Assembly: GCA_964611805.1 (NCBI GenBank)
Contig: CAZTBG010000002.1
Coordinates: forward strand, 3,053-63,026
Direction: 5' to 3'
DNA from: an uncultured Dehalococcoidales bacterium
GTDB taxonomy: Bacteria > Chloroflexota > Dehalococcoidia > Dehalococcoidales > Fen-1064
Length of the DNA: 59,974 bases
Part shown: piece after piece, positions 9,981-55,343 of the stretch
Numbering within the stretch: position 1 is the first letter of the stretch
Layout: the number at the start of each line of letters is the position of its first letter
The notes under the pieces: generated by a model
What the model saw: only the letters and a program-made list of their open reading frames with translations
What the model was told of the DNA's origin: nothing
Databases searched by the model: none
Translations under genes and position numbers: made by a program

Positions 9981-9990
9981 GGAGGTCAAA

Positions 9991-10894: not shown

Positions 10895-12520
10895 ATGAGA
10901 CAAAGGACAACTCTCAGTGGTCATGACCTAAGGGCGATGCTCACCGCCGGTACTAACTGGTTGGAAAGGATTGTCCCGGACATCAATGCCCTGAACGTCT
11001 ATCCGGTGCCAGATGGAGATTGCGGTACTAATATGCTGCTCACCATGCGTGCCAGCCTGACTGAAGCCACTAGACTTGCCGACGGCACTGGCATATCCGC
11101 CATGGCCGAAGCTATAGCCAGAGGAGCTCTGATGGGTGCCCGCGGCAATAGCGGGGTTATCCTTTCACAGATATGGCGTGGACTCTTCGAAGGGCTGAAA
11201 GATAGAGAAGCGGTCAATTCCCAGGAACTGGCACAGGCTTTAAAAGAAGCCTCATTGGTAGCTTATCGCGCATTGAGTAATCCGGTTGAAGGTACTATTT
11301 TGACCGTGATAAAAGATGCGGCTTCGGCCGCTGGGCGGGAAGCATCTGTTGACGGGGCCAGGCCGGTATCGACCCTTAAAGCAGCAGTCCAGGCTGCCAG
11401 GTCGTCTGTGAAGAATACCCCGAACCTCCTCTCGGTACTGAAGGATGCCGGGGTGGTCGATGCCGGCGGGCACGGACTGTACACATTACTGGAAGGGGCT
11501 TTACTTTATCTGGAAGGTAACACAGATAATCGGTCCCCCGAGTTGCTGACAAGCGGACTGTCGCCGTTGGCGCAGCCTTCACTGACTCCTGGCGAAGGGG
11601 ACTCCTATGGTTTTTGCACACAATTCATGGTGAAAGAAGGAAAGTTCCCTACCACTAAAATCAGGGACGCCCTGGGAAGTATGGGGAATTCGCTGATGGT
11701 GGTAGGCGATTCATCGGCAATCAGGGTACACATTCACACTCAGGACCCGGATGCGGTCATTGAGGTCGCTTCCTCCTTTGGCAACTTGGTCGACATCGAC
11801 ATCCATGACATGGACGAACAGCACATAGAATTCCTGTTACTGCACCAGGAGAAGATGACAAAACTGGACACCGCTATTATTGCCGTGGTCAATGGCGACG
11901 GGATGATTGATGTATTTTCCGACCTAGGAGTATCTGCCATCATTCCCGGGGGGCAGACAATGAATCCCAGCACCATCGACATGCTCCAGACGATTATAGA
12001 GGTAACATCGGATAATATTATCTTTTTACCAAACAACAAGAACGTAATTCCCGCAGCTCTCCTGGCTCAATCTCTGACCGAAAAGAACCTTCGGTTAATC
12101 CCTACGGAGACGATTCCCCAGGGAATTGCAGCCCTCATTGCTTTCGTCCCTGAAGCTGATTTCGAAACGAATGTGGAGCAGATGACTGAAGCCATAACCG
12201 CCGTGAAGACAATCGAGATAACGCACGCCACCCGCACCACCAGGTCAAATAATGTGAACATTAAAGAAGGTGAGATTATCGGTCTTCTTGACGGTGAATT
12301 GCTGGCTGTTGGAGATACAACCGAGAACGTCATATTTCAGCTGTTCAGCCGAATTGATTTGGGACAGGCTGGCATAGTTACGCTCTACCACGGCAAAGAC
12401 ACCGATGAGATTGAAGCAAAGCAAATAGGTGCCAAGATTTGCGAGCAATATCCCGGGCTTGAAGTCGGAGTGGTGGGTGGCGGTCAACCTAATTATAGGT
12501 ATATTATCTCCGTGGAATAA
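10895..12520 (+). CDS. DAK2/DhaL-domain protein, FakA/YloV-like fatty acid kinase subunit
   Basis: DGDCGTNM Dak2 motif; ATG 10895 preferred over the TTG at 10856. Confidence 0.8.
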   Translation: MRQRTTLSGHDLRAMLTAGTNWLERIVPDINALNVYPVPDGDCGTNMLLTMRASLTEATRLADGTGISAMAEAIARGALMGARGNSGVILSQIWRGLFEGLKDREAVNSQELAQALKEASLVAYRALSNPVEGTILTVIKDAASAAGREASVDGARPVSTLKAAVQAARSSVKNTPNLLSVLKDAGVVDAGGHGLYTLLEGALLYLEGNTDNRSPELLTSGLSPLAQPSLTPGEGDSYGFCTQFMVKEGKFPTTKIRDALGSMGNSLMVVGDSSAIRVHIHTQDPDAVIEVASSFGNLVDIDIHDMDEQHIEFLLLHQEKMTKLDTAIIAVVNGDGMIDVFSDLGVSAIIPGGQTMNPSTIDMLQTIIEVTSDNIIFLPNNKNVIPAALLAQSLTEKNLRLIPTETIPQGIAALIAFVPEADFETNVEQMTEAITAVKTIEITHATRTTRSNNVNIKEGEIIGLLDGELLAVGDTTENVIFQLFSRIDLGQAGIVTLYHGKDTDEIEAKQIGAKICEQYPGLEVGVVGGGQPNYRYIISVE

Positions 12521-20236: not shown

Positions 20237-20360
20237 AAGGCCACAGTCGTTCTTATTGAGATTTTACAATTGGGCGCTTTATTACATTAAGCAGCCATCA
20301 CGGGAAGCCCATTGACATTATCATTTTCACTACTGTATTATTCAACAAATTAGAATATGT

Positions 20361-20443
20361 ACTAGGGGAGCTGAAAGGCTGAGAGGTCCCGTGTGGGGCG
20401 ACCCTTATTACCTGATCTCGGTAATGCGAGCGTAGGGAAGTGA
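20361..20443 (+). promoter_or_regulatory. TPP (THI-box) riboswitch aptamer
   Basis: CUAGGGGAGC..GGCUGAGA..ACCCUUAUUACCUGAUCUCGGUAAUGCGAGCGUAGGGAAG is colinear with the E. coli thiM aptamer as recalled. Confidence 0.9.
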
Positions 20444-20452
20444 AAAACCTGA

Positions 20453-20495
20453 AACCAGAAGACTGATCACATCCCAGCTTCTGGTTTTTCTTTTC
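20453..20495 (+). terminator. Intrinsic terminator serving as the riboswitch expression platform
   Basis: AACCAGAAG (20453-20461) pairs with CTTCTGGTT (20478-20486), followed by TTTCTTTTC. Confidence 0.8.
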
Positions 20496-30894: not shown

Positions 30895-31302
30895 ATGGCG
30901 GAGAAGATTCTCATAGTCGATGATGACCCCGACATCTTGGATGCCCTGACAATGATTCTTGAATCGCAGAACTACGAAGTTGTAACCGCACGAGACGGTG
31001 TTGAAGGTCTGGCAAACCTCAAAGCCGAAGAACCTGACCTCATGATACTCGACTTATTAATGCCGAAGATGGACGGCTTTAGCGTTTTAAAAGAACTTCA
31101 GGATCCGAGATGGTCCAAATATAAGAGCATACCGATTCTAATTCTGACCTCAGTGAGAGAAGAAGCCAGCCGGCGCCGCTATGAACTGGAAACGGGCCTG
31201 GAGTTGGGTGTTGATGATTACGTGGAAAAACCGATGCTCCCGGAGGTTTTACTTGAGCGGGTTGGGAAGCTTATTAGAAAAAAGAAGAAAGGGCGTACCT
31301 AG
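30895..31302 (+). CDS. Stand-alone receiver-domain response regulator (CheY-like)
   Basis: ILIVDDDPD, phospho-acceptor context LMILDLLMPKMDG; the 135 aa include no output domain. Confidence 0.9.
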   Translation: MAEKILIVDDDPDILDALTMILESQNYEVVTARDGVEGLANLKAEEPDLMILDLLMPKMDGFSVLKELQDPRWSKYKSIPILILTSVREEASRRRYELETGLELGVDDYVEKPMLPEVLLERVGKLIRKKKKGRT

Positions 31303-31335
31303 AGTCTATTTTAAAGCTTCAGTACGGAAGGGAGA

Positions 31336-31740
31336 ATGAGGATGCAAGACAAGGCTAAAATACTGATTGTTGACGATGATGTTGACTTCGCAGAATCCGT
31401 TAAGACTATCCTTGAGGCTAAGCCTTATAATGTAATTGTTGCCACTCAGGGGGACGAGGGACTGCAAAAGGCAAGGAATGAGAATCCGGACCTTATTCTA
31501 CTGGATGTGATAATGCCAGTGAAGGACGGATTTACAGCTGCCGAGCAGCTCAAGAAAGACCCCGAACTTTCCAAGATACCCGTAATAATGCTCACGGCTT
31601 TTTCGGCCAAAGGTGGGGAGACTTCAATTCCAAGAAGTCGGGGGTACACTCTTGAGACCGAAGATTATATTGAGAAACCGGTACGTCCTCAGGACCTGTT
31701 GGCAGCGGTGGAAAAAGCACTGCGAATAGCCTCTTCATGA
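31336..31740 (+). CDS. Stand-alone receiver-domain response regulator (CheY-like)
   Basis: ILIVDDDVD, LILLDVIMPVKDG; the 134 aa include no output domain. Confidence 0.9.
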   Translation: MRMQDKAKILIVDDDVDFAESVKTILEAKPYNVIVATQGDEGLQKARNENPDLILLDVIMPVKDGFTAAEQLKKDPELSKIPVIMLTAFSAKGGETSIPRSRGYTLETEDYIEKPVRPQDLLAAVEKALRIASS

Positions 31741-31947
31741 TCGAGAACCGTTCTTAACTGCATAAACACAGCTATATAAGTCTACCTGTGGAGACTGTAC
31801 CACAGACTGTGGCTAGTACGCCATAGGCGAGACGTGTAAAGAATGGACACCAAGTTTTTCAGTGGTATAAGCTAATAGAAATTTGGAGCATTTTCCTACT
31901 AAGTAAACATTGTTTAAGTAGTCCCGAATAATTATCCGGCAATATAT

Positions 31948-31980
31948 AAAAGGCATCCCTGCCGCTGGGATGCTTTTTAT
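31948..31980 (+). terminator. Intrinsic terminator
   Basis: GCATCCC (31953-31959) pairs with GGGATGC (31967-31973), followed by TTTTTAT; A-tract upstream. Confidence 0.6.
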
Positions 31981-31999
31981 TACCCTTTTCTTTCATTCT
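31981..31999. repeat. Left copy of an 18/19-bp direct repeat (TACCCTTTTCTTTCATTCT)
   Basis: Matches 32651-32668 with one single-base indel; lies directly after the terminator. Confidence 0.6.
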
Positions 32000-32265
32000 C
32001 TTTTGGCGGATTACCCACATACTAGCTAGCCCTTGAAATTTGACCTTATGACTTATTGTTATGGACCCCTATGGTGAATTAGGTCGGTTATTTGATATAT
32101 GGGAATATGCGTATAACATGGATTATACGTGGTGAGTTGAGGTAAGGTCAGGTGTGCGCTGACAATTATGGGTAAGCCAACTCTTGCTAGGATCGCTATT
32201 TATACAGAAGAGACTATCTTAAGTAGCTATAGTATAACTAAAATCTTAGTAAAACATTAGGTTCA

Positions 32266-32385
32266 TTGAATCTATCAACGGCAATAATAGACCAACAGCT
32301 CGACCGGGTTTTACCTATTAGCCAACAATTGGAAGCTCAAATGTGTGAAATTGGGTTCGTAAATACACATTCCGATGCTTTGTAG
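32266..32385 (+). pseudogene. Truncated third member of the small-ORF family found at 32844 and 33153
   Basis: TTG-initiated 39 codons LNLSTAIIDQQLDRVLPISQQLEAQMCEI.., paralogous to MKSTVAIHEELDRVLTQVELED..QAMEIY of the 32844 ORF; shared DNA string GACCGGGTTTTA. Confidence 0.35.
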
Positions 32386-32650
32386 TCTGGATTATTACCA
32401 CAACCGCGTACTTCTTCCAGAGATGGACGATTACCTCATCGTCTTGGAAGGTAAAAGCAGGACATTGGGATAATCAACTAGCCTCACATGCACTTGATTG
32501 TCACAATTTAGTATCATGTGGACTATCATTCACCCCGACTTTCGGTGTTACCAAAGTGTAATTTGAAACATTCCTGACCCTCGGATTCAAATGTTTAGGC
32601 ATTTCAGGCAAGTCAGATTTAACCACGTAGTCACCAAACCTAAGTCAGTA

Positions 32651-32668
32651 TACCCTTTTTTTCATTCT
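32651..32668. repeat. Right copy of the 18/19-bp direct repeat (TACCCTTTTTTTCATTCT)
   Basis: See 31981-31999. ATTACCCAC follows the left copy and its near inverse GTGGGATAAT follows the right copy. Confidence 0.6.
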
Positions 32669-32843
32669 GGCCACGTGGGATAATCTCAGATAGTTAACCT
32701 TACTAAAGTACCATTACTTTACTATCATACAGGGTATATACGTAAGTACTGCTTTTAAAGATTAGGACTAATCTGAATACGATTCATATACACACCTTCT
32801 GATACAAAACAATGAGAATTTCTATTTACAGGGAGAGATTATC

Positions 32844-33101
32844 GTGACAAGAGACGGAATGAAATCCACTGTAGCAATTCATGAAGAACTAGACCGGGTT
32901 TTAACCCAGGTAGAGCTGGAGGACTACCTTTCAATGGCATCCCAGGCTATGGAGATATACGAGATGTTTGATAAGGCTGATGCCATCGGCTCGGATTACG
33001 GCCAGGGTTATCAGGATGGATTCTGGACAGGACATAAGCTCGACGCGAAATATCAACTGGCCAAAATGGAGTCTATTGAAGAGAAGCTCTCGATTTTTTA
33101 G
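32844..33101 (+). CDS. Small hypothetical protein (85 aa), member of a local paralogous family
   Basis: GTG start preceded by GGGAGAG; C-terminal SDYGQGYQDGFWTGHKL motif recurs in the next ORF. Confidence 0.5.
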   Translation: MTRDGMKSTVAIHEELDRVLTQVELEDYLSMASQAMEIYEMFDKADAIGSDYGQGYQDGFWTGHKLDAKYQLAKMESIEEKLSIF

Positions 33102-33152
33102 AGCAATGCGGATACTGGATGTTATCTATGTAGTGCTACATGAGATACCACA

Positions 33153-33371
33153 ATGTTGATAAGTAGGGGGAAATACCATAGCGATATCAATGCCGCTTAT
33201 ACAAGAGGGCTTGAGCAGGGCTTCGAACTATCACGAAAGCTAAAACGAATTCGTGAGGGAAAAAACCAGGAGTCTTCTTCCCCACTTGATATGAATAAAT
33301 CGGAAGAATCGTCACTATTACTGCAGCAACTGATTGATATCGCTGAACGTAAAGTGATCAAATTGAGATGA
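33153..33371 (+). CDS. Small hypothetical protein (72 aa), shares the G(Y/L)(Q/E)(D/Q)GF motif with the 32844 ORF
   Basis: SDINAAYTRGLEQGFELSRKL parallels SDYGQGYQDGFWTGHKL; no clear RBS. Confidence 0.4.
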   Translation: MLISRGKYHSDINAAYTRGLEQGFELSRKLKRIREGKNQESSSPLDMNKSEESSLLLQQLIDIAERKVIKLR

Positions 33372-33479
33372 ACTATTATTCAACGTTCAAGGAATATGCG
33401 ATAGGCGAGTACCAGATTACGGCATGCGCACTAGGAAGCGTGACTGCTTCATTACAGCCTCAGCATTAGGAGAGTTTAT

Positions 33480-34187
33480 ATGGCAAAACTGTCGAAGTAT
33501 ACCGGTCTAATATCTACTGGAAATGATGAGCTTGACAAGAAAATGGGGGGAGGGATACCACCTAACTCTCTCAGTCTGATAGAGGGACAGCCGGATTCGG
33601 GGAAATCTGTCCTGTCACAGCAGATGATATGGGGTTCTCTCAGAAACGGATGCAAGGTAGCCATCTTCACCACGGAGAACTCTGTGAGGAGCCTCATCAC
33701 ACAAATGAAGAGCCTGAATCTTAGCATCCTGGATTATTACCTACTCTCCAGACTATATATCTATCCTATAGATGCTAAAAAATCAGCGGGCGGCATGAAT
33801 ACCGGACTAATTCCCATGATTCAAAATTGTGCCTTGGAAGGTTTTAACTTGGTGGTTGTTGACTCTATTACTTACTATGCTACTCATGTCACTATTACTG
33901 AGCTGATTACCTTTTTCGAGGACATGAAAGCTCTAACCAGTAAAGGACTGAGTATCATTTGCAGCGTTCACCCCTATGCCTTTGATGAGAGTACACTTAT
34001 CAGAGTAGGAGCCATGTGTGACGCTCACCTGAGGCTACGCATTGAGACCATGGGGACTAAGTTGGCAAAAATTCTGGAGGTAGCCAAGATACGCGGCGCT
34101 GCCCAGAAGACAGGCAACGTAATCACGTTTGACGTCGAACCAAATTGGGGCATCAAGGTTATACCATATGCCAAGGCGAGGGCCTAG
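33480..34187 (+). CDS. KaiC/RecA-superfamily ATPase, archaellum ArlH (FlaH)-like
   Basis: ISTGNDELDKKMGGGIPPNSLSLIEGQPDSGKSVL (Walker A), LVVVDS (Walker B without the following Glu), VHPYAFDES, ITFDVEPNWGIKVIPYAKARA. Colinear with archaeal FlaH as recalled; AGGAGAG RBS. Confidence 0.8.
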   Translation: MAKLSKYTGLISTGNDELDKKMGGGIPPNSLSLIEGQPDSGKSVLSQQMIWGSLRNGCKVAIFTTENSVRSLITQMKSLNLSILDYYLLSRLYIYPIDAKKSAGGMNTGLIPMIQNCALEGFNLVVVDSITYYATHVTITELITFFEDMKALTSKGLSIICSVHPYAFDESTLIRVGAMCDAHLRLRIETMGTKLAKILEVAKIRGAAQKTGNVITFDVEPNWGIKVIPYAKARA

Positions 34188-34194
34188 AAGCAGC

Positions 34195-34329
34195 CACGCT
34201 TCCCTAATGCTTAGACAGGGTATTCACCCTTAGATAGTGTATGAATGGTTAAGCCATGCCATTATCCAAATCACTCTTTAAACATATAGTCACGTTGCCC
34301 CGAGATCCGCTCCAACTGTTCTCATTAAT
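34195..34329 (+). pseudogene. 3' relic of a tyrosine recombinase/integrase
   Basis: One frame reads HASLMLRQGIHP*IVYEWLSHAIIQITL*TYSHVAP, colinear with the HxxAxxLLxxGvxxxxIqexLGHssIqtTxxYtHv box II; in-frame TAG 34231 and TAA 34279. Confidence 0.7.
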
Positions 34330-34404
34330 ACGTATAATTGCACTTATACGCGTGGATTCAGGCATTTTGCCAGTCATCTTTTAGACTCTCGCCTCACACA
34401 AAGC

Positions 34405-34938
34405 CTACGGTAACGTTGAAACCGCGATCTTGAACAACTCATCCCTTGAGAACTGATTGCTGGAATAGAGCCGCAAGGTAGAACTCGGGAACTGGTCAGT
34501 ACCGTACTCCCACCACAGCACGTATTTACCGTCCTTATCTTCGAGCCGACCGCCCACCTCTGGGACGGATTGTGCCCAAGGCATCTTGAGGCCAAGGCCA
34601 AGCTCATGCCAGCCAATGTTCAGTACGAGGCGGCAGGTAAACTGTTTGCCTTGCCATCGTACCGCCTGGTCGGAGATCAACAACCAAATTTGAGTCACCT
34701 GAGGACTGCTGTTCGGCGATTCATAGTAATACACTTCTCTTACCTCGTAGCCCAGCGGTAGATAAGCTGGCATTGGTAATTTGGTACTTAATAAGAATCC
34801 AAGCTTTGGAATGGTGGTCTTCTGCCAGCCGCTCTCAAGCTGGTCAGACAAAGAAGGGCCAGAATAAACAGGCTTTTCCTGAGAGGTTGTGCACCCGGTG
34901 GTGAGTACCAACAGCATAGGAATCATGGTTGAACACAA
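34405..34938 (-). CDS. Lipoprotein, DUF4367-like
   Basis: Signal peptide with lipobox LTTGC; PAYLPLGYEV segment typical of DUF4367 as recalled. Confidence 0.6.
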   Translation of the reverse strand: MCSTMIPMLLVLTTGCTTSQEKPVYSGPSLSDQLESGWQKTTIPKLGFLLSTKLPMPAYLPLGYEVREVYYYESPNSSPQVTQIWLLISDQAVRWQGKQFTCRLVLNIGWHELGLGLKMPWAQSVPEVGGRLEDKDGKYVLWWEYGTDQFPSSTLRLYSSNQFSRDELFKIAVSTLP

Positions 34939-35240
34939 TCTTTAGAATCTTCATGGTTTTCCCCTAGGCTTGGTTCTCTATTATACTCTATATATTTATA
35001 ATATATACTCTTGCTTTCAGACCTCGAATAATCTGATGTTCTCTGTGTTGCTCTACATTTCATTACACGAAATAGCGTAGTGTGCGGCACTACTTTTAAG
35101 CTAGAGAGTCACTCGTTCGGGCGTGTAATTGCAGTTAAACGCTAATCCAAATTGCACAAACCTCGGTTTTAGTATATCGATGCATTACGAGCATACCAGA
35201 TAGGGGTGCAGACACTCTAAGGGAGATACCAATATATTCT

Positions 35241-35269
35241 TTGACAGATGGACTAACTACTGCTACAAT
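35241..35269 (+). promoter_or_regulatory. Candidate sigma70 promoter TTGACA-17-TACAAT
   Basis: TTGACA 35241-35246, 17-nt spacer, TACAAT 35264-35269; upstream of the 35356 gene. Confidence 0.45.
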
Positions 35270-35355
35270 CTGGACGGATACGTTACAGTAAAGAAATTTA
35301 AAGAAAGGCCTCGAATCAATACCTTGACTGAGAATCGCTGAATCGGGATAAAGAG

Positions 35356-36129
35356 ATGGGCATGAGATGGCTATCTTTGTCGGTCCTTCTATTATTAGCT
35401 ACACTCGCCTTCCCCATGGGTGGATGCAGTAAGCAGGATGAAACGACTGAGACATCTCCAGGTAACGCAGCGCCATCTACAAGCGGGATGACATGGGAAG
35501 AACTTGAAGTACGGATTGCCAGTGGAAGAGCAATAGCAGAAGAAATAATAAACCTGATACCCGAGAATAGGGTCTGGCTACCACCCGTGCCTCCGGTAGG
35601 CGGAGAAAAGGTGCGCCTATTGACAGCCGAAGAAAAGAATAGAATCCTCCAGATAGCCATGTCTTTTGCTCCGGTACTTGAAGCCCAGGGATACACAGAT
35701 GTATCAAGTGTGGACGAACGCGATTATTTCTGGAAGTCATATGGTAATGAGGAAGCTGTAGATGTTAGTAATACATATATGGAAAAACGGGGTATAAGCC
35801 AGAAGCTCGATGAATACATGGGGGATAAATGCTACCCCGGAGTTTTTCTTCTATTCCGTACTCAATATGAAAACTATGCCTACGCGGCAATGTATATCAC
35901 CGTCAACCCAGAGCAGGAGAGCGTGATATATGTTGATGGATTCGTCGAAGCTATTGATTTACCGCCAGGGTATGAATCATCTGGCATAAACCCGAAATCA
36001 TTTACCTTAGATGGGAATAACCTCCTCAGTCCTCTAAATCCAAATTATGACCCCAGCGGGATTTGGGGTGGTGAAGGGACTCGCTTTGGCCCTCCCTGGG
36101 ACTACAGTAATACTGTCCCTGGGGAATAG
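35356..36129 (+). CDS. Hypothetical lipoprotein
   Basis: Signal peptide LLLLATLAFPMGGC followed by polar mature protein. Confidence 0.6.
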   Translation: MGMRWLSLSVLLLLATLAFPMGGCSKQDETTETSPGNAAPSTSGMTWEELEVRIASGRAIAEEIINLIPENRVWLPPVPPVGGEKVRLLTAEEKNRILQIAMSFAPVLEAQGYTDVSSVDERDYFWKSYGNEEAVDVSNTYMEKRGISQKLDEYMGDKCYPGVFLLFRTQYENYAYAAMYITVNPEQESVIYVDGFVEAIDLPPGYESSGINPKSFTLDGNNLLSPLNPNYDPSGIWGGEGTRFGPPWDYSNTVPGE

Positions 36130-36295
36130 AGTCATCTTTACAAGAAGACCACTGATGCTGTGTTGTATTTACATATCCCTGCCGTTGTCAGTCACAATCA
36201 CTCAGCATGTTAATTATCTGGCAGGTACCAATTAAAAATACCTGAGTAAGAATGACTATTTACACTCCCTCTAGTTTTACTTTGGAATGTGAGAA

Positions 36296-36427
36296 GTGAA
36301 ACAGCAATTGAGATTCTACGTAATAGTTCTAGTCGTCATCCTGTCGACGAGTGCCATATTCATCGCTGGCTGTAGCTGTCTGCACCAAGCTGGCCAGCCA
36401 TATGATCTGAAGTACCCGGCCACCTGA
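36296..36427 (+). CDS. Small putative lipoprotein (43 aa), below the ORF-track cutoff
   Basis: GTG start; VKQQLRFYVIVLVVILSTSAIFIAGCSC.. has charged N-region, hydrophobic core and lipobox IAGC; TGA at 36425. Confidence 0.35.
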   Translation: MKQQLRFYVIVLVVILSTSAIFIAGCSCLHQAGQPYDLKYPAT

Positions 36428-36456
36428 TCCAACATGTACAAGAGGAGAAAACGGAT

Positions 36457-36960
36457 GTGAAGCTGTCTGTTACTCAGATAGTATTAGGAATTCTTATCGT
36501 ACTAGCTGCCTGCTATATCGTCTGGTGGATGATATTCGGCGTAACGGAGCTACTAAACTTGAAAATACTCAACGAAAGCGGTGCGATGGTAGCAGATTAT
36601 ACTCCCGAATATGAAGCTCTTTTCCCTATTGCTAGATATGCTTCCTGCCTGTTATTGGGGCTTGGATTGGTGGTGCTGGTCAATGGGGTTTTATGGAAGA
36701 AAGTTGAAAATAAAACGAAACAAGCCATTGTTCAGATTGCTGCTGGTGCCTTAACATTTGCTTTATCCGCTTTTATTTTGATATGTGGGTATTCATTTGA
36801 TTATATCGTAGCCATAGAGGGTGGCCCCATATTAGACTTAGGCTGTGCAAGGGTATGCACCTTTCTTACTTCTCTACTAGGGCTGGCAGCGTTCGGAGTA
36901 GGCATAGCCCAATTTAATTTATTAGTGCGAGGAAAAAGACACTCCATGAAATCAATTTAG
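36457..36960 (+). CDS. Integral membrane protein, four predicted TM segments
   Basis: 167-aa ORF with four long hydrophobic stretches. Confidence 0.6.
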   Translation: MKLSVTQIVLGILIVLAACYIVWWMIFGVTELLNLKILNESGAMVADYTPEYEALFPIARYASCLLLGLGLVVLVNGVLWKKVENKTKQAIVQIAAGALTFALSAFILICGYSFDYIVAIEGGPILDLGCARVCTFLTSLLGLAAFGVGIAQFNLLVRGKRHSMKSI

Positions 36961-37204
36961 AGAAAGAGTCGTATTACCCCATCTCCACAGGCTATTCTTC
37001 GTCCTCGCCCAGCAGATAGATGCCGCCGGCAATATGCTATGGCCGGTCAACGGAGTGCTATTTGCGACAGGTGGGGCAAATTCCATCGCCTGTGATGGAT
37101 ACGGCGGCATCGTTGTCGCCTGGGGCGAATAGCGAAGGTCATATGTCCAAAGAATAAATACTGAAGATAATTTACTATGGGGGAACAAAAGGAATCAGGC
37201 TTAA
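36950..37204 (+). pseudogene. Start-less relic of a YAQxIDxxGxxLW-repeat protein, paralogous to the anti-sigma ectodomain (42275..43576)
   Basis: One frame reads ..FVLAQQIDAAGNMLWPVNGVLFATGGANSIACDGYGGIVVAWGE*RRSYVQRINTEDNLLWGN..; compare GIYAQHIDAEGNLLWGDG..DGGGGAVIYW in the anti-sigma factor; in-frame TAG 37130. Confidence 0.45.
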
Positions 37205-37224
37205 TCCATAAACGTGAGGGTGAA

Positions 37225-38628
37225 ATGAAAAATAGAAAAGTATTTTACCTGGCCATGATTATATTGATAGCAGCTACAATTAGTTTGCCAGTTGGTTGCA
37301 GTAAAGAAACTGATAGAATTGTCGAAATTGATTGGGTTGATTTCATTAAGTTTAACGACATCACTTATCTTCGTACCGTCCAATCATTACCTTACTCCGA
37401 AGAAGAACTGGAATATTTTGACGAAATTCGGTTCAGAGTGGAGGGTAACATCAACACCCCGGATTACGAGAGTAAAAATGGTGACGCCGCCTACCTCGAT
37501 GAAGGAACTCGAATCTATTCTATAAGGGGCTACTCACCTGATTTCCGTCTGGTGGCCGAAACAGGGACGGAATTACTCCTTTTTGAAGCCGATACCAATC
37601 CCGCTGCCGAAACAGGGGCGGACCTGCTGGATATCGGAGGAAAGGTCGAATACATCGGGATTAACGACCCGGTTGACGGGAAAACCGAACTGGCTTCGAT
37701 TACAGAGCCGGACCTGGTTTCCAGTCTGGTCGAGATGGTACTCGAAGCGGCGGTTGACCAGACTGTCCGCTCAAGTGGAACCCAGATTTTTATCGAATTT
37801 CATCTCAGGGATGGTACTAAGGTAAACCGCAGTTTCTGGGCTGGCACCGGAGAACTGCATAGAGGGATAATGCTTCCAGATGATTTCTGGGAGACAATAA
37901 AACCGCTCATTCCCGCCGCTCCCGGGCTTGACGGCACTCAATGGTCGCTGATTGAAATCAATGGAAAAGAAATCATTGAAGGTTCCTATATCAGCCTGTA
38001 CTTCCGTAACGGGTCCGTGCAGGGCTTTGCCGGCTGCAACACCTATGGAGCAGGCTACTCCACTGAAGAACCCGGTATACTGGAAATTCAGATGCTCACT
38101 ATGACTGCAATGGCCTGTTATTTCCCTCTAGGGGTGCTCGAACAGGAGGAGGAATATGTCGAGACCCTCAGTAATGGCGCCCACTATAGCATTACCTACA
38201 ATGAACTGGAGATTTACGGTCCCGGTAATGAAAAACTGCTGGCATTTGAAAAGATACCGGAATACTCTATGAACCCTGCCGACCTTGTCGGCACGAGCTG
38301 GAAGCTTGTCTCAATGAACGGAGACCATGTTATCGAAGGCCTGTCCATCACTCTCACCTTCGAAAGCGATAGTGAGGCCTCCGGGCGTGCCGGTTGTTTC
38401 GACTATGTGCTTCACTACACAGCCAGCGGTGATGATATCGGATGGGGAATGACTACCAGAAGGGATGGCGAGCTTCCCCAGGAACTCGAGAGACAGGCCC
38501 TTAGGTATACCGATAGCGTAATGTGGGTCGCCAACTATCGCCTTACCTCAGACAGGCTGGAATTGCACACCTCAAAGGGAGATACACTGGTCTACGAACC
38601 TCTTGAAAATTCTGACGGAGTTGAATAA
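37225..38628 (+). CDS. Lipoprotein with two META (HslJ-like) domains
   Basis: ATG 37225 after GAGGGTG; lipobox LPVGC; LDGTQWSLIEINGKEI..GFAGCNTYGAGY and LVGTSWKLVSMNGDHV..GRAGCFDY. Confidence 0.75.
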   Translation: MKNRKVFYLAMIILIAATISLPVGCSKETDRIVEIDWVDFIKFNDITYLRTVQSLPYSEEELEYFDEIRFRVEGNINTPDYESKNGDAAYLDEGTRIYSIRGYSPDFRLVAETGTELLLFEADTNPAAETGADLLDIGGKVEYIGINDPVDGKTELASITEPDLVSSLVEMVLEAAVDQTVRSSGTQIFIEFHLRDGTKVNRSFWAGTGELHRGIMLPDDFWETIKPLIPAAPGLDGTQWSLIEINGKEIIEGSYISLYFRNGSVQGFAGCNTYGAGYSTEEPGILEIQMLTMTAMACYFPLGVLEQEEEYVETLSNGAHYSITYNELEIYGPGNEKLLAFEKIPEYSMNPADLVGTSWKLVSMNGDHVIEGLSITLTFESDSEASGRAGCFDYVLHYTASGDDIGWGMTTRRDGELPQELERQALRYTDSVMWVANYRLTSDRLELHTSKGDTLVYEPLENSDGVE

Positions 38629-38651
38629 AAATCCACAACAGGAGGTGAAAA

Positions 38652-39782
38652 ATGAAAAAACTAATCTCCATTATCATGCTGGCCCTGATGTTAGCAACTA
38701 CTCTTATATCGCAAACAGGCTGTGGAAAAGAGGCAGAAGACTCAACGTCCGAATCAAACCGCTTCCTGGAGCTCTTGAGCATAGTACCGGTCAATGATAA
38801 TACGCTCAAAGTAGTATATCTTAACGACAGAGAGTATTTTACGGCGAAAAAGGAGCAATATCCACAGATTCCGCTTGAGTATGCCATAGGTAAGGCTCAA
38901 CTATTGACCGGAGGTCACTCTTACGATGCGGAAGAGTGGAAAGAGACGCTCACATTCACCCTCGAAGACGTCAAGCAGAGCATATATGCCGGTATCACTC
39001 CTTCTAATTATTACGAGGCGGTACGCGCAGATTTCAGTCGGGAAGAAGTTGATAATGCGATGAAAACCGGCCCGTTAAACGACATACTCGAGATAATGTC
39101 CTATCAAGGACATGAATTCTACAGCTGGGGCGGCGACAACGAAATGGACTTTTCAAGGCACAGCAACGTGCGCTGGTTAGGACAGGGCCATAGACTGGCA
39201 CTACTGGATGATTTCCTCTTCTGGGTTACCTGGACTGATGGCTTAAAGGAAATGATAGACAGCTACGACGATAGAATCGACTCGCTGGCCGACGTCGAAG
39301 AATACAAGCTGCTGGCAGACGGGCTTATAGAGCTCGATGTATGCAACGCGTTTTTCTCCACCCAGTCTCAATCACACAGCAGCATCACAGAATGGCTGCA
39401 GCAGGACCCCTCCTTTAATTATGAACAACCTGAGGTATACCAGCGTTTTCTTGAATCAATTGAGGAAACGGTCCGCCTGGAGCCTTACCAGGCGTTCGCC
39501 ACCGGAGGCGGCCTCGATGAGCACGGCTTCTATATGGCGATAGTGCTGGTGAACCCTGACGACGAGGTTGCCCGGAGCAACGCAACTCTGCTTGAGCAAC
39601 GAATCAATCAAACAGAGAGTGTATGGCGGGGCCTTCAATGGTCAGACCTTATTGAGAGCATGGAGATTCAGAGTGAAGGTCGACTTACTCTGGCCAGGCT
39701 TTACGGCCCTATTTGCGAGTACTGGACCTGGTTTAATATGTATGGTGAGAGTGGATATGAACCCCTACTCGTGTGGGAATAA
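38652..39782 (+). CDS. Hypothetical lipoprotein
   Basis: Signal peptide with lipobox SQTGC; GGAGG RBS upstream. Confidence 0.65.
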   Translation: MKKLISIIMLALMLATTLISQTGCGKEAEDSTSESNRFLELLSIVPVNDNTLKVVYLNDREYFTAKKEQYPQIPLEYAIGKAQLLTGGHSYDAEEWKETLTFTLEDVKQSIYAGITPSNYYEAVRADFSREEVDNAMKTGPLNDILEIMSYQGHEFYSWGGDNEMDFSRHSNVRWLGQGHRLALLDDFLFWVTWTDGLKEMIDSYDDRIDSLADVEEYKLLADGLIELDVCNAFFSTQSQSHSSITEWLQQDPSFNYEQPEVYQRFLESIEETVRLEPYQAFATGGGLDEHGFYMAIVLVNPDDEVARSNATLLEQRINQTESVWRGLQWSDLIESMEIQSEGRLTLARLYGPICEYWTWFNMYGESGYEPLLVWE

Positions 39783-50871: not shown

Positions 50872-52389
50872 TTAGCCACGCAGCCTGGGCAAGAGGCCAG
50901 GCACTTGCTGATATATGATGTCCACCGTTGCTTTGTCTATGTGGCATGGTGGCAACGATAGTATTTCGTCCATCCGTTCCCTGGCACGAAGTAGAGTCTC
51001 GTCTGTCATACCCTTACTTTCGAAGGGATACGGGGGGGCTATCTCGCCGGAGCGCAGGGCCTTACGGACAAAGCGCATGTAAAGCTTGTGTGACGTACCC
51101 ATGACTCTTCTTACTTGCTCCAGGCATTCCGTGATTGAATCGTCTGTAAAATCTGCCTTCTGAACAAATCTCTTGACCATTTCTATGTGTGTATTGTCGA
51201 GTATGGCTTGCACTGGGCAAAAGGTATTGGTCCGTTCTAGCAGACCAAAGGCATAGTGGATGTATTGTGCTCCTGACAGCGCCACCAGGATATGTGAGAA
51301 TAGCCTCTCTACTAGGGCCTGTACGCCGGGCACCTCCACATCAGAAACACCGGCGGTAGAATAGCATGGCAGGCCATAGTAACGGGCCATTTGAACACAA
51401 TCTATGTTGTACTGACTGAACTCGGGGACTCCGTAGGAGTCATTAAGGTCATCTAGGCGGGTTCTAACAGGCACGCTACCATATAGCACCGGTGCCCCTT
51501 TGCTTACCAGCTGGGCCAGAGCTATTCCCACCAGAATTTCGGCGTTTATCTGGGATACCATACCCTCTTCCGTAATCGGAGCAGTCGAGCCACCCTGCGG
51601 GGAACTCGAAATTACCAGCGGAATCTTTCTCCTGGCTATTTCTATGGCTTTCTGAGAAGTATCGTCCACAAGCTGAAGAGGACTCTTAATTGTACAGGTG
51701 ATAAAAGAAATAATGGGATTTTCGCTTAGCTTTTCCTGCCCCCCGGCAATAATCTCTGCCATCTTGAGGACGTTTTCGAGCTGACTGAGCTCGGTAAGAC
51801 CGGACATCACATGTTTGGTAGTGTTGTTCAGGGAGGCAAAGAACTTGTTGACATCCTTGTTGGTGTCGTTAATATCGTCATCCTGAATATTTACTGTGCG
51901 TAGGAAGCTGTCCCATGAGTCGAGGTGCTCACAGAGATGTGCTGCCTGTGCCAGTCTGGCCACGGTACCTTTCTGGATGGTGAACGTAGGAAAAAGCATT
52001 TCCTTACTGGAATCTCGTTTGCTGATAAAAGGCTCTATATCCAGGTCGAGCCAGTTATTGGCCTCGGAGCCAGAAGCAAAGTGTATCCTGGGCTCACTCC
52101 CGTCAAGGACGAGGCAGTTTTCTTCGTCGCGGGCTCCCAGTTTCACTACCTTCGGTGTTGCTGATACCGCTCCTGATACTATTTTTTCGGGTATCCTGAC
52201 TAGCCAGCTGTCTTCCTGAGCGCCTGGCTCAACCTCAGCGCCGTTATCGCCAAAGACCTGAGCCGCATCTCTGTTAAAACAGATAATACCCGGGTCAAGC
52301 AGGATGCTCAGCGAAGCCTGATGTATCTTCTCTATCTGCTCTTCAGTCAGGCGTCGGTATGGTTCTACAAGCACGCCATTTCTAGCCAT
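50872..52389 (-). CDS. MttB-superfamily methyltransferase, non-pyrrolysine
   Basis: 505-aa uninterrupted ORF with MttB-family N-terminus (LTEEQIEKIHQASLSILLDPGI); corrinoid operon context. Confidence 0.85.
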   Translation of the reverse strand: MARNGVLVEPYRRLTEEQIEKIHQASLSILLDPGIICFNRDAAQVFGDNGAEVEPGAQEDSWLVRIPEKIVSGAVSATPKVVKLGARDEENCLVLDGSEPRIHFASGSEANNWLDLDIEPFISKRDSSKEMLFPTFTIQKGTVARLAQAAHLCEHLDSWDSFLRTVNIQDDDINDTNKDVNKFFASLNNTTKHVMSGLTELSQLENVLKMAEIIAGGQEKLSENPIISFITCTIKSPLQLVDDTSQKAIEIARRKIPLVISSSPQGGSTAPITEEGMVSQINAEILVGIALAQLVSKGAPVLYGSVPVRTRLDDLNDSYGVPEFSQYNIDCVQMARYYGLPCYSTAGVSDVEVPGVQALVERLFSHILVALSGAQYIHYAFGLLERTNTFCPVQAILDNTHIEMVKRFVQKADFTDDSITECLEQVRRVMGTSHKLYMRFVRKALRSGEIAPPYPFESKGMTDETLLRARERMDEILSLPPCHIDKATVDIIYQQVPGLLPRLRG

Positions 52390-52398
52390 AATTCTCTC

Positions 52399-53208
52399 CT
52401 AAGTTATCAGAGTACCTTGCCGGTAGGCCCTGATGTACCGCCGGCATTGCGGGTCCTTTTCAGTGAGAATGTCGGCAGCTTTAATAAGGCTCATTGCTCT
52501 GGTATCGAGCGGGTCGAGGATAACAGCATCCAGCCCGGCATAGGCTGCCATTAGCAAAAATGCCCGGTTTACCAGCTTTCTGCCGGGTAATCCATAGGAA
52601 ATATTGCTCAGGCCCATCACCGTTTTTGCTTTTGGATACTGTGACTTAATCCGCTCAATGGTCTTCAGTGTTGTTAATGCCTGTCCGGAATCAACACCTA
52701 CGGGAAGCACCAGCGGGTCGAAATAGACCTGCTCTTCATTGATGCCGAACCGCGCCAGGTGTGTCATTATTACCTCGCAGGCAGCCAGTCTCGCTTCCAC
52801 GCCGCGGGGTATTCCTTCGGCACTCATCGCCAGTGCCACCAGCCGTACCTGATGCCCGATTTTAAGGTGGCCTATTGCCTCCAGCTTTTCTGGTTCGGCA
52901 TTGACGGAGTTAATTACCAGTTCTTCCTTGCCATACTTTTGCATGCCTGCTTCTATGACTTCAGGGATATCACTGTCAATTGCCAGTGGCTTGTCGGTGG
53001 CTGCTTGGACAGTTTCTACCGCCCATTCCATGGTTGCCATTTGTTCCTGTCTAGTCTGTTTGGCCGTGCCAACATTCACGTCAATGAAGTCAGCACCGGC
53101 GTCAGCCTGGGCCTTTGCCAATCCCGTGATGTACCCTTCGTTCCTGCCTATGATAGCTTCAGCAACGGGCTTGCTGGAAGCGTTAATTTTTTCTCCGATT
53201 ACCAGCAT
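52399..53208 (-). CDS. Methyltetrahydrofolate:corrinoid methyltransferase (pterin-binding domain)
   Basis: MLVIGEKINASS.., ADFIDVNVG, LAIDS, GLSNISYGLP pterin-binding barrel motifs. Confidence 0.8.
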   Translation of the reverse strand: MLVIGEKINASSKPVAEAIIGRNEGYITGLAKAQADAGADFIDVNVGTAKQTRQEQMATMEWAVETVQAATDKPLAIDSDIPEVIEAGMQKYGKEELVINSVNAEPEKLEAIGHLKIGHQVRLVALAMSAEGIPRGVEARLAACEVIMTHLARFGINEEQVYFDPLVLPVGVDSGQALTTLKTIERIKSQYPKAKTVMGLSNISYGLPGRKLVNRAFLLMAAYAGLDAVILDPLDTRAMSLIKAADILTEKDPQCRRYIRAYRQGTLIT

Positions 53209-53213
53209 ATATT

Positions 53214-54659
53214 TCAGTCCACTATGCCTTTTATTTCCGTGAGTATCTGCTGCCTGACTGTCTCTGGAAGGTGGTGGTTACTCTCAGCTATAAGCTGCCG
53301 TGCAATTTCTCCTGCTCTCTGCCAGGTAATCTTACTTCCCTTACTTTCCCAGTCTGCCCGGCTGTCTCTATCACTCAGGGTAGGCAGATAGTGCTCAGTG
53401 CGCATGAAACGCCTGGTGTGCTTGGCGGTGGCAAAATTACCCCCTGGCCCCACCTCTTTGATGAGGTCGAATGCCAGCGTCTCGTCATCTACCCTGATAC
53501 CTTCGACTGCCCTCATCACCATACCCAGTATCTCATTATCGATAACGAGCTTCTCGTAACATACTGTCATAGCGAACTCCATGAGCCCGGCGGCATCATG
53601 GATGAAGTTGGACCCTGCCAGTGCACAGAGCAAACCGGTCAGGGCTGATTCGTAACCGCTCTGGGCATCCAGTACCTTGGAGTCTGTCATACCGCCGGTG
53701 GCATAGAATGGGAGCTTATAGAATTGCGCCATCTGGGCCCCGGCGGCATTAATCAAGCCCATCTCAATCGAACCGGCCAGATAGCCAAGGTTAGATAAGT
53801 CCGTGCTGGTGGCCACTGAGCCGAAGATAACCGGTGTCCCCGGGTTTACTATCTGAGCGAGCATAACACCCATCAGTGAGTCGACTGTCTGTATTACCAG
53901 ATTCCCGCCCAGCGTAACCGGTGAAGTGGCCCCACATAGAGGCTCGGCAGGACACACCAGCGGGATACCGCTCTCGGCAATAATAACCACCAGGTCTCCG
54001 TAGTGAGCGTCCAGCTTCATGGGGCTCATGCTACAGGCTATCATGGAGATAATTGGTCGTTCTCTGAGAGCTACCGCGGAGCCAGCCACAATCTCGGCCA
54101 TGCGTATCACCTGTTTCACCCCCTCGGCCGTGTAGACGCCACCCATGATGTGTTTGGTGCTGTTGTCCAGCCCGGCAAAGAAGCGGTTTACATCCACCTG
54201 CTCCACAGGCAGTTCGTTGGGATAGGTGGAAAGCATCAATAGATGGATATTATCTAGGCGGTCAACCAGTTTGGCGATTTGCCTCACGTCTTCTAGGATG
54301 GCGAGACGTCTTTGGTCGGTATCTGGTTCATAGATGTTGAGGGCGGTTCCACCGGTGCCGGCATATACGCGACTCCCTCCGAGGAGAATGTCATGCTTGT
54401 CTTCCTGCCCACAAAGCCGGACCTCGGAGGGGGCCATATTTATCAGTTCTATTGCTTTCTCACGAGGTAGATGTACCAGCCGCCTTTCCCTGTCCACCTG
54501 GCCTCCGGCTTTCTGAAAAAGCCCCAAGGCTGTCTCTGAGTTTACCTGAAAGCCTACTTCCTCAATCAACCGCATGGCGGTTTCATGGACTTTTTTTACT
54601 GACTCTTCGGAAAGCGGTTTGTAGCTACCTCCAATAACGCCTTTACGAATATGTTTCAT
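53214..54659 (-). CDS. MttB-superfamily methyltransferase, non-pyrrolysine
   Basis: 481-aa uninterrupted ORF; LSEESVKKVHETAMRLIEEVGF N-terminus; paralogue of 50872..52389. Confidence 0.85.
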   Translation of the reverse strand: MKHIRKGVIGGSYKPLSEESVKKVHETAMRLIEEVGFQVNSETALGLFQKAGGQVDRERRLVHLPREKAIELINMAPSEVRLCGQEDKHDILLGGSRVYAGTGGTALNIYEPDTDQRRLAILEDVRQIAKLVDRLDNIHLLMLSTYPNELPVEQVDVNRFFAGLDNSTKHIMGGVYTAEGVKQVIRMAEIVAGSAVALRERPIISMIACSMSPMKLDAHYGDLVVIIAESGIPLVCPAEPLCGATSPVTLGGNLVIQTVDSLMGVMLAQIVNPGTPVIFGSVATSTDLSNLGYLAGSIEMGLINAAGAQMAQFYKLPFYATGGMTDSKVLDAQSGYESALTGLLCALAGSNFIHDAAGLMEFAMTVCYEKLVIDNEILGMVMRAVEGIRVDDETLAFDLIKEVGPGGNFATAKHTRRFMRTEHYLPTLSDRDSRADWESKGSKITWQRAGEIARQLIAESNHHLPETVRQQILTEIKGIVD

Positions 54660-54665
54660 TAATAT

Positions 54666-55343
54666 CTATCTCCTGCCGGGGCAATTATGCTCTTGGCAGG
54701 ATGCGCAAGGATTGTAGTTCTCTATTTCGCTTTTGCAGGTTCCAATACCAATTACACCTGATATTGATTTACGAGGTACCATCAGGTTATCGTCAGTCAA
54801 TTGGATACTGCTGTTACTCCCATTCATAGCGTGGAAAAGCATCTGCTGTTGACTCACTTCCCAGTCACAATAACCCGGGCTGAATCGCCGACTGATATAC
54901 AACCCTCGAGCCCCCACCATCTGTTTGATTATATCCTGCACATGGTCAGCCACCTGCTCAACTGCATGCGAGCCGATGGCATCGAGCACCCTGGCCTGTA
55001 CGATGAGCCCGTCCTCGGCAAGTTGAGCCACTGTTTCCTCAAGATAACTATCTATAGTCAGGGCAAATACAGCCACTTTCTCGCACTTTTTCAGTAGCTC
55101 AGAAATTACTCGACTTTGAAAAATAACTCCGCCTTCAATAAAAACACTTGAGTTAATAATGAAGTCGACATCTTTGATGACGTATGAAAAAGCGGGATTG
55201 ATTAATTGGTTTACGTTCTCTGCATAGTCATGGGTTAGTGCTGTTACGCGAGCTGGTGGTTTACAAGTACTACAGTAACCAATATCACGCCAGACCTGTC
55301 TCTCGTTTATGTTTATGGGAATCTGATTACTTAAAGTTGTCAT
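54666..55343 (-). CDS. Methionine-synthase activation-domain-like protein (corrinoid reactivation) with C-terminal Cys cluster
   Basis: RRFSPGYCDWEVSQQQMLF and PRKSISGVIGIG motifs; C-terminal CASCQEHNC. Confidence 0.75.
   Translation of the reverse strand: MTTLSNQIPININERQVWRDIGYCSTCKPPARVTALTHDYAENVNQLINPAFSYVIKDVDFIINSSVFIEGGVIFQSRVISELLKKCEKVAVFALTIDSYLEETVAQLAEDGLIVQARVLDAIGSHAVEQVADHVQDIIKQMVGARGLYISRRFSPGYCDWEVSQQQMLFHAMNGSNSSIQLTDDNLMVPRKSISGVIGIGTCKSEIENYNPCASCQEHNCPGRR

What the first reader, a model, noticed from the sequence alone, without database searches (positions are those of the whole stretch)
33480..34187. Orphan archaellum ArlH/FlaH-like ATPase in a bacterial context
The 235-aa protein is colinear with archaeal FlaH/ArlH as recalled. 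It shares ISTGNDELDxxxGGGIP, Walker A GxxxSGKS, Walker B hhhhDS lacking the catalytic Glu, and the C-terminal FDVxPxxGIKVxP. No archaellin, ArlI or ArlJ genes are visible in the window. The gene sits in AT-rich DNA and ends 8 nt before an integrase relic, which suggests horizontal acquisition. Archaellum-like loci have been reported in a few Chloroflexota, but a solitary ArlH with small partner ORFs would be a different, uncharacterised use of this KaiC-like module.
Basis: partly seen in the sequence, partly recalled or inferred. Interest (0 to 1): 0.65.

Follow-up and report, generated by a model that had tools for sequence, protein, structure and literature searches.

The report
Second ArlH copy of a bacterial archaellum
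The gene is a real archaellum ArlH-type ATPase in a Dehalococcoidia bacterium, but it is not an orphan: the genome has a complete archaellum operon elsewhere, and this is a conserved second copy that relatives keep next to a spare pair of filament genes.

Summary
The 235-aa ORF at 33480-34187(+) exists as described. It is a genuine FlaH/ArlH-family protein (NCBIfam NF004723, 254.6 bits against a cut-off of 194) and keeps every residue known to be needed for ATP binding and autophosphorylation.

The genome is bacterial (Dehalococcoidia). It is not archaellum-less. Contig C14 carries a complete arl2-type operon (HTH-arlB-arlB-257aa-arlG-arlF-arlH-arlI-arlJ), and its ArlH is 81% identical to the window copy.

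The window gene (ArlH2) is a lineage-specific paralogue and the sister of the operon ArlH in the tree. Orthologues at 88-89% identity occur in two relatives, one with a closed chromosome. There ArlH2 sits beside a second HTH-arlB'-arlB' set. In this genome that set lies on contig C25.

ArlH2 is under purifying selection (omega 0.16, CI 0.10-0.26), though more relaxed than ArlH1 (0.04). The integrase relic is real and shared by all three genomes. The two small 'partner' ORFs belong to an independent repeated module.

Most likely ArlH2 is an alternative regulatory subunit for the single ArlI/ArlJ motor, inherited together with spare archaellins. Archaella in Dehalococcoidia were published in 2025, so interest is modest.

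The parts
33480..34187 (+). arlH2: second, extra-operon copy of the archaellum KaiC-like ATP-binding protein ArlH/FlaH (235 aa)
   Evidence: NF004723 scores 254.6 bits, above the cut-off. It is 81% identical to the operon ArlH on C14. K42, T64, T65, E66 and D128 are conserved. Omega is 0.16.
33373..33479 (+). 107-nt leader of arlH2, shared with the W156 orthologue. It contains the AGGAG ribosome-binding site at 33468-33472. Its last 31 nt are still alignable with the 3' end of arlF in the operon.
   Evidence: blastn aligns window 33373-34358 with L009 6561-7546, and window 33449-34186 with L008 11744-11004..
34189..34329 (+). C-terminal relic of a tyrosine recombinase (box II, ...LGH..I..T...YSHV) with two in-frame stops. 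The same junction is present in both relatives.
   Evidence: Pfam PF00589 positions 135-170 of 172, E 0.03-0.08. DNA homology with L009 extends to 34358.
32844..33101 (+). s85: 85-aa ORF of a small unannotated family. It belongs to an independent repeated module and is not an ArlH-specific partner.
33153..33371 (+). s72: 72-aa ORF, always paired with s85. Its stop codon abuts the start of the arlH2 cassette.
32556..32742 (+). About 190-nt conserved non-coding element (inverted repeat TTTGAA-N16-TTCAAA, GTAGGATAAT box). It is also found upstream of the satellite HTH-arlB'-arlB' unit on C25 and of the s85-s72-zn unit on C4.
   Evidence: nhmmer finds three copies in the genome, E 1e-54 to 5e-56.

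Best explanation
The gene is arlH2, a lineage-specific duplicate of the archaellum gene arlH in a Dehalococcoidia bacterium that has one complete arl2-type archaellum operon elsewhere (contig C14).

Shown: the family assignment, the complete operon, the sister relationship of ArlH2 to the operon ArlH, and conservation of ArlH2 in three genomes under purifying selection. Also shown are its physical linkage in relatives (W156, bin10 and metagenome contig L032) to a spare set of archaellin genes, in W156 and bin10 preceded by an HTH_17 gene, and the fact that arlI, arlJ, arlF and arlG are single-copy.

Inferred: ArlH2 binds ATP, autophosphorylates and forms the ring under the single ArlI hexamer, as ArlH does in archaea. 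It would either replace ArlH1 or mix with it. It would be used together with the satellite archaellins ArlB'x/ArlB'y as an alternative filament-plus-regulator set, analogous to archaellin ecoparalogs.

The satellite set looks like a partial copy of the operon (HTH-arlB-arlB...arlH) that landed next to or inside an integrase gene. In this genome it was later split between C2 and C25.
For: FlaH subfamily model above cut-off, and full-length match to solved FlaH structures. Residues needed for ATP binding and autophosphorylation in SaArlH (K33, T55, T56, E57, D122; bioRxiv 10.1101/2021.03.19.436134) are all conserved here. Full operon on C14, syntenic in both relatives. ArlH2 and ArlH1 are 81% identical. 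The ArlH2 clade is sister to the operon clade inside Dehalococcoidia. Orthologues at 88-89% identity exist in W156 and in the closed chromosome CP070842.1, each alongside the operon copy. ArlH2 lies next to HTH-arlB'-arlB' in L009 and L024, and next to an archaellin in L032. G000 has the same HTH-arlB'-arlB' on C25. HTH_17 precedes both the operon and the satellite archaellins. Omega is 0.16 (CI 0.10-0.26) for ArlH2 and 0.12-0.19 for arlB'. Only arlH, arlB and the HTH gene are duplicated. A shared ~190-nt upstream element sits before the arlH2-containing unit and the arlB' unit. No N-gap lies near the locus.
Against: In this genome arlH2 is physically separated from arlB' and lies behind unrelated small ORFs. 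The shared upstream element also precedes an s85-s72-zn unit that has no arl gene (C4), so co-regulation is only suggested. Omega is four times higher than for ArlH1, which would also fit a relaxed or changing function. The ArlH equivalog model is missed by 22 bits, although the operon copy misses it by the same margin.
Confidence: 0.7

Rival explanations
1. ArlH2 is a functionless leftover of a partial operon duplication carried by a now-dead integrative element, and it is slowly decaying.
For: An integrase relic lies directly after the stop codon. The setting is AT-rich and GC3 is lower than in ArlH1. Omega is four times that of ArlH1. The flanks are not syntenic with relatives.
Against: The reading frame is intact in three genomes plus P0020. 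Omega is 0.16 with an upper confidence limit of 0.26, far below 1. All catalytic and binding residues are retained. A good ribosome-binding site is present. The integrase beside it has decayed while arlH2 has not.
Confidence: 0.1
2. One reading: ArlH2 has been recruited, together with the small ORFs s85 and s72, to a non-motility function, with the KaiC-like module acting as a stand-alone switch.
For: In this genome and in bin10, arlH2 follows s85-s72 on the same strand. The gap is 108 nt here and no terminator is predicted in it. 15 of the 22 fixed ArlH1/ArlH2 differences cluster in residues 82-134, a window chosen after seeing the data. A second, independent clade of lone ArlH genes exists in other Dehalococcoidia, in metabolic neighbourhoods.
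Against: s85-s72 occurs at two other sites in this genome and in 7 of 7 sampled contigs without ArlH. W156 has ArlH2 without these ORFs. In three of the four known contexts ArlH2 is adjacent to archaellin genes.
Confidence: 0.12
3. Binning or assembly artefact: the window contig comes from a different, related organism, and the 'second copy' is simply that organism's ArlH.
For: The genome is a 99-contig MAG with 3.8% estimated contamination. C2 has a GC of 0.484 against 0.526 overall.
Against: A closed chromosome (CP070842.1) and MAG W156 each carry both copies, with the same orthology pattern. The window copy lacks arlF and arlI flanks, so it is not an operon copy from another strain. No N-gap lies near the locus.
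Confidence: 0.03

Closest known systems
ArlH/FlaH of the archaellum motor (S. acidocaldarius 4YDS, M. jannaschii 4WIA, P. furiosus ArlH)
   Same: Single KaiC/RecA-like domain of about 230 aa. Walker A lysine, RecA-type Walker B (D-S), the TTE motif with the catalytic Glu, and a conserved C-terminus. Full-length alignment at E 1.9e-37.
   Different: Encoded outside the arl operon, in a bacterium, as a second copy. It is not flanked by arlF/G or arlI. Its biochemistry is untested.
Archaellum loci of Chloroflexota (Dehalococcoidia/Anaerolineae; Litorilinea aerophila), Nat Microbiol 2025, PMC12488501
   Same: The host genome has the same arl2-type cluster with arlG before arlF, multiple arlB genes and arlHIJ.
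   Different: That paper states that all arl genes remain within one locus. Here arlH and two arlB genes also exist as a satellite set outside the locus.
Archaellin ecoparalogs of Haloarcula marismortui (arlB on the chromosome, arlA2 on a plasmid), reviewed in PMC10117864
   Same: A spare archaellin set is encoded away from the accessory genes and presumably uses the single motor.
   Different: The satellite here also includes a copy of the motor-associated ArlH and an HTH_17 gene. Environmental switching is not shown.
Multiple ArlH homologues (arCOG04148) in Prometheoarchaeati (Asgard) genomes with scattered archaellum genes, PMC13705601
   Same: More than one ArlH homologue per genome, with arl genes not all in one locus.
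   Different: Those are archaea, and their paralogues have not been characterised. Here the duplicate is recent (81% identity) and tied to archaellins.
KaiC (circadian clock) and archaeal single-domain KaiC-like proteins
   Same: Same fold and the same autophosphorylation chemistry.
   Different: KaiC has two domains and about 500 aa. The KaiC models score only 65 bits against a cut-off of 408, and 52 against 248.

Membership tests
ArlH/FlaH (NCBIfam NF004723 FlaH subfamily) | Whole-protein score above the curated cut-off | tested here: met
   254.6 bits against a cut-off of 194, covering model positions 11-243 of 243. The operon copy scores 255.3.
ArlH (NCBIfam NF052589 equivalog) | Whole-protein score above the equivalog cut-off | tested here: not met
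   193 bits against 215. The bona fide operon ArlH of the same genome also falls short at 191.9. The shortfall is therefore a property of the Chloroflexota clade and is not specific to this copy.
ArlH/FlaH | Single KaiC/RecA-like domain with Walker A Lys, RecA-type Walker B Asp-Ser/Thr and the TTE motif (catalytic Glu) | tested here: met
   K42, D128-S129 and T64-T65-E66 align with SaArlH K33, D122, T55, T56 and E57. PF06745 covers residues 12-229.
ArlH/FlaH | Encoded in the arl cluster next to arlI and arlJ | tested here: not met
   The window has no arlI, arlJ, arlF or arlG. The paralogue on C14 does meet this feature.
ArlH/FlaH | Phylogenetic placement with operon-encoded ArlH rather than with KaiC, RadA or Sms | tested here: met
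   Sister to the operon ArlH clade of the same genomes, with 97-99% support. KaiC, RadA and Sms models score 18-65 bits, far below their cut-offs. No archaeal outgroup was included in the trees.
ArlH/FlaH | ATP binding, autophosphorylation and nucleotide-dependent binding to ArlI | not testable with these tools
   Needs biochemistry.
Archaellum system (arl2 type) in the host genome | arlB, arlG, arlF, arlH, arlI and arlJ in one locus, with arlG before arlF | tested here: met
   C14 operon. ArlI (NF058587) scores 665 bits against a cut-off of 550. The ArlJ, ArlF, ArlG and archaellin models match below their equivalog cut-offs, but the Pfam domains score above theirs.
Archaellum system | [quoted passage not shown] | tested here: inconclusive
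   The 257-aa ORF at the ArlCDE/X position has no family hit.
KaiC circadian clock protein | Two tandem KaiC domains, about 500 aa, score above cut-off | tested here: not met
   235 aa, one domain. NF006799 scores 65 bits against 408, and TIGR02655 18 against 546.
Tyrosine recombinase (Phage_integrase PF00589), for the downstream relic | Catalytic domain match above the gathering score | tested here: not met
   Only the last 35 model positions match, at 13-15 bits against 27.1, with in-frame stops. This is consistent with a relic, not a gene.

The most novel reading that the evidence does not exclude
Some Dehalococcoidia carry a swappable 'filament plus regulator' cassette: two alternative archaellins, an HTH_17 regulator and a dedicated ArlH variant. 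The cassette would re-tune the single ArlI/ArlJ motor when the alternative filament is made. More broadly, extra-operon ArlH genes arose at least twice in this class (clade A here; clade B in L016, L018, L019 and L023). Some of them may have become stand-alone KaiC-like switches that no longer depend on motility.
Probability: 0.3. Interest if true: 0.55.

Novelty: new variant of a known kind. Interest (0 to 1): 0.33.

Why it matters
Bacterial archaella were only recently shown to exist and to work, and they were described as single-locus systems. A conserved satellite set that duplicates only the filament subunits and the KaiC-like ArlH would be a natural experiment on the role of ArlH, which is still poorly understood. 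If ArlH2 pairs with particular archaellins, that would link the cytoplasmic regulator to filament identity. It would also show that the transferred machinery went on evolving by partial duplication inside Bacteria. For genome annotation, the practical message is that a lone FlaH/ArlH gene in Chloroflexota should prompt a genome-wide search before it is called an orphan.

Tried and rejected
1. Recent lateral transfer of arlH2, inferred from low synonymous divergence. ArlH2 dS (0.29-0.40) is half that of ArlH1 (0.59-0.80), but arlJ, arlB1 and the satellite arlB' genes give 0.25-0.53. The ranges overlap, so I rejected this.

2. Topological conflict between the ArlH2 and ArlH1 subtrees as evidence for transfer. 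The internal order of the ArlH2 clade changed between and had weak support, so I rejected this.

3. s85 and s72 as ArlH partners: rejected. Pfam, NCBIfam and PHROGs gave no annotation for s85, s72, the zinc-ribbon ORF or the 194-aa gene.

4. Archaeal host: rejected. No rRNA gene is assembled.

5. Promoter and terminator scans around arlH2 gave nothing above chance.

6. The two FlaH hits in MAG MFD04408 turned out to be two 98%-identical full operons, not a satellite.

7. The PYLIS hit is not a pyrrolysine site.

Copy number across the order, the peptidase search and expression evidence could therefore not be obtained.

Full report
**Observation**

The window holds an ATG-initiated ORF at 33480-34187 (+) of 235 aa, preceded by AGGAG at 33468-33472. 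Pfam assigns a single KaiC/ATPase domain (PF06745, 69 bits, residues 12-229).

NCBIfam places the protein above the curated cut-off of the FlaH subfamily model NF004723 (254.6 bits against 194). It falls just below the ArlH equivalog NF052589 (193 against 215). KaiC, RadA/Sms, RecA and DnaB models score 12-65 bits, far below their cut-offs.

The best solved relatives are FlaH of Sulfolobus acidocaldarius (4yds, E 1.9e-37, full length) and of Methanocaldococcus jannaschii (4wia). In that alignment K42, T64, T65, E66 and D128 correspond to SaArlH K33, T55, T56, E57 and D122. These are the residues shown to matter for ATP binding, autophosphorylation and motility (bioRxiv 10.1101/2021.03.19.436134).

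**Host**

The genome (2.09 Mb, 99 contigs, 97% complete, 3.8% contamination) has five sigma-70 region-2 hits and no TBP. Its tRNA-Tyr is 87 nt, the bacterial class-II form. No rRNA gene is assembled. All close homologues come from Dehalococcoidia/Chloroflexota MAGs. The 'bacterial context' is correct.

**Not an orphan**

A genome-wide search with the FlaH model found a second gene on contig C14, 81% identical over 230 aa. It lies in a co-linear minus-strand operon:

- an HTH_17 gene
- two archaellins (PF01917, with the class III signal-peptide domain)
- a 257-aa ORF with no family assignment, at the ArlCDE/X position
- arlG and arlF
- arlH
- arlI (NF058587, 665 bits against 550)
- arlJ

The arlG-before-arlF order is the arl2 type reported for Chloroflexota (PMC12488501).

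**Origin and conservation**

Two relatives each carry both copies. They are MAG W156 (DUEV01) and the closed chromosome CP070842.1 (Dehalococcoidales bin10). One copy is 88-89% identical to the window gene and the other 79%. This rules out a binning artefact.

In maximum-likelihood trees the three window-type copies form a clade (100/99). Together with metagenome protein P0020, that clade is sister to the operon copies of the same genomes (97-99% support), deep inside Dehalococcoidia FlaH. The gene therefore arose by duplication in this lineage, not by a new transfer from archaea.

The operon region is syntenic over at least 13 kb in all three genomes. The flanks of the window copy are not shared.

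**What it is linked to**

- In W156 the order is HTH_17 - arlB'(200 aa) - arlB'(224 aa) - arlH2 - integrase relic.
- In bin10 it is s85 - s72 - zinc-ribbon ORF - arlH2 - relic - HTH_17 - arlB' - arlB'.
- On the P0020 contig, ArlH is followed directly by an archaellin and a response regulator.
- This genome also has HTH_17 - arlB' - arlB', but on contig C25. These are 88-91% identical to the W156 satellite genes and 75-79% identical to its own operon archaellins.

Only arlH, arlB and the HTH gene have second copies. arlI, arlJ, arlF, arlG and the 257-aa gene are single-copy.

The satellite set therefore mirrors the 5' end of the operon plus arlH. DNA similarity between arlH2 and the operon starts 31 nt before the ATG, inside the 3' end of arlF, and stops at the stop codon.

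**Selection**

Nei-Gojobori estimates among the three orthologues give omega 0.16 for ArlH2 (bootstrap 95% CI 0.10-0.26) and 0.04 for ArlH1 (0.02-0.06). The difference is significant. The satellite archaellins have omega 0.12-0.19, like the operon archaellins.

ArlH2 is therefore maintained by selection, but under looser or shifted constraint. There are 22 fixed ArlH1/ArlH2 differences, and 15 of them fall in residues 82-134. That window was chosen after seeing the data, so its P value should not be taken literally.

**Surroundings in the window**

The sequence after the stop codon reads as the box-II end of a tyrosine recombinase with two in-frame stops. In W156 the same stretch is still open for about 52 codons. 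Pfam matches only the last 35 model positions, at E 0.03-0.08. The identical junction in three genomes shows it is an old relic.

The two small upstream ORFs (s85 and s72) have no family assignment. They occur three times in this genome (C2, C4, C46). At C4 and C46 they come with a zinc-ribbon ORF and a 194-aa gene on the opposite strand. In 7 of 7 sampled metagenome contigs they occur without any ArlH. W156 lacks them next to arlH2. They are not ArlH partners.

A ~190-nt non-coding element, with an inverted repeat TTTGAA-N16-TTCAAA and a GTAGGATAAT box, occurs exactly three times in the genome. It lies before s85-s72-arlH2 (window 32556-32742), before HTH-arlB'-arlB' (C25) and before s85-s72-zn (C4). 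This hints at common regulation but does not prove it.

**Mechanism proposed**

Established knowledge of ArlH: it binds ATP, autophosphorylates slowly, forms a ring beneath ArlI, and loses oligomerisation and ArlI affinity when phosphorylated. From this, ArlH2 most likely acts on the single ArlI/ArlJ motor as an alternative or mixed-ring subunit. It would be used together with the satellite archaellins, comparable to the archaellin ecoparalogs of Haloarcula (PMC10117864). These steps are inferred.

**Rivals**

- A decaying remnant: disfavoured by omega well below 1 and by intact motifs.
- A new non-motility role with s85 and s72: disfavoured by the independence of that module and by the archaellin linkage.
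- A binning artefact: excluded by the closed relative.

**Ideas dropped**

The lower dS of ArlH2 as a sign of recent transfer: other arl genes overlap that range. Subtree incongruence: it was unstable.

**Comparison with what is known**

Archaellum clusters in Dehalococcoidia and Anaerolineae, and a working archaellum in Litorilinea, are published. That paper states that all arl genes stay in one locus. Multiple ArlH homologues have been noted in Asgard archaea.

What is new here is modest. It is a conserved satellite set containing arlH2 and two archaellins outside the locus. There is also evidence that extra-operon ArlH genes arose twice in Dehalococcoidia. The second clade (L016, L018, L019, L023; 100/100 support) sits in metabolic neighbourhoods with no arl gene within 10 kb on a 1.75-Mb contig.

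**Verdict**

The 'orphan with a novel use' interpretation is largely refuted. The gene is a paralogue within a known system, with an undescribed satellite arrangement. Interest 0.33.

Noticed in passing
window 32556-32742; also G000 C25:7087-7272 and C4:11476-11662; L024 about 8920-9110 and 11000-11190; L009 about 4570-4760: A conserved ~190-nt non-coding element with an inverted repeat TTTGAA-N16-TTCAAA and a GTAGGATAAT box. It occurs exactly three times in the genome: upstream of s85-s72-arlH2, of HTH_17-arlB'-arlB' and of s85-s72-zn. It may be an operator/promoter or a leader RNA.
   Followed up: partly
window 32844-33371; G000 C4:10695-12504; C46:12776-14145: A repeated small-gene module (s85, s72, a zinc-ribbon ORF of about 64-73 aa, and a 194-aa gene on the opposite strand). 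It has no family assignment and forms a small family of 57 protein clusters seen only in metagenomes and MAGs. There are three copies in this genome, and the 194-aa gene has further paralogues on C11 and C19.
   Followed up: partly
L023 9953-10699; L018 3686-4396; L019 about 9962-10678; L016 about 335-1042: A second, independent clade (100/100 support) of ArlH genes outside any arl operon in other Dehalococcoidia MAGs. The neighbours are an acyl-CoA dehydrogenase and a methyltransferase/FeeM-like gene. Whether these genomes have an archaellum operon could not be checked.
   Followed up: partly
G000 C14:25155-33237 (L008 7153-15271, minus strand): A complete arl2-type archaellum operon. It includes a 257-aa ORF with no family hit at the ArlCDE/X position and a conserved 229-aa ORF after arlJ (60% identical in relatives), neither of which has a family match.
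   Followed up: partly
window 53591-53690 (-), inside ORF 53214-55343: An Rfam PYLIS_3 hit (60.9 bits) lies inside an MttB-family methyltransferase gene that has no in-frame TAG at that position. The only TAG is at the boundary with the upstream ORF. No tRNA-Pyl was found by ARAGORN. It is probably a non-pyrrolysine MttB homologue, and a second MttB-like gene lies at about 50872-52400.
   Followed up: partly
window 31741-32555: About 0.8 kb of AT-rich sequence (GC about 0.39) with no ORF, between the two single-domain response-regulator genes (30895-31740) and the conserved element. No repeats or relics were identified in it.
   Followed up: no
window 20354-20455 (+): TPP riboswitch (RF00059, 67.9 bits).
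   Followed up: no
L012 and L014 (MAG MFD04408.bin.2.112): Two full arl operons on separate contigs, 98% identical over 6.4 kb. These are either strain-variant contigs or a true operon duplication.
   Followed up: no
window 34405-39782: A run of predicted lipoprotein genes (signal peptide followed by Cys) downstream of arlH2, on both strands, with no family hits. One has a weak DUF4367 match.
   Followed up: no
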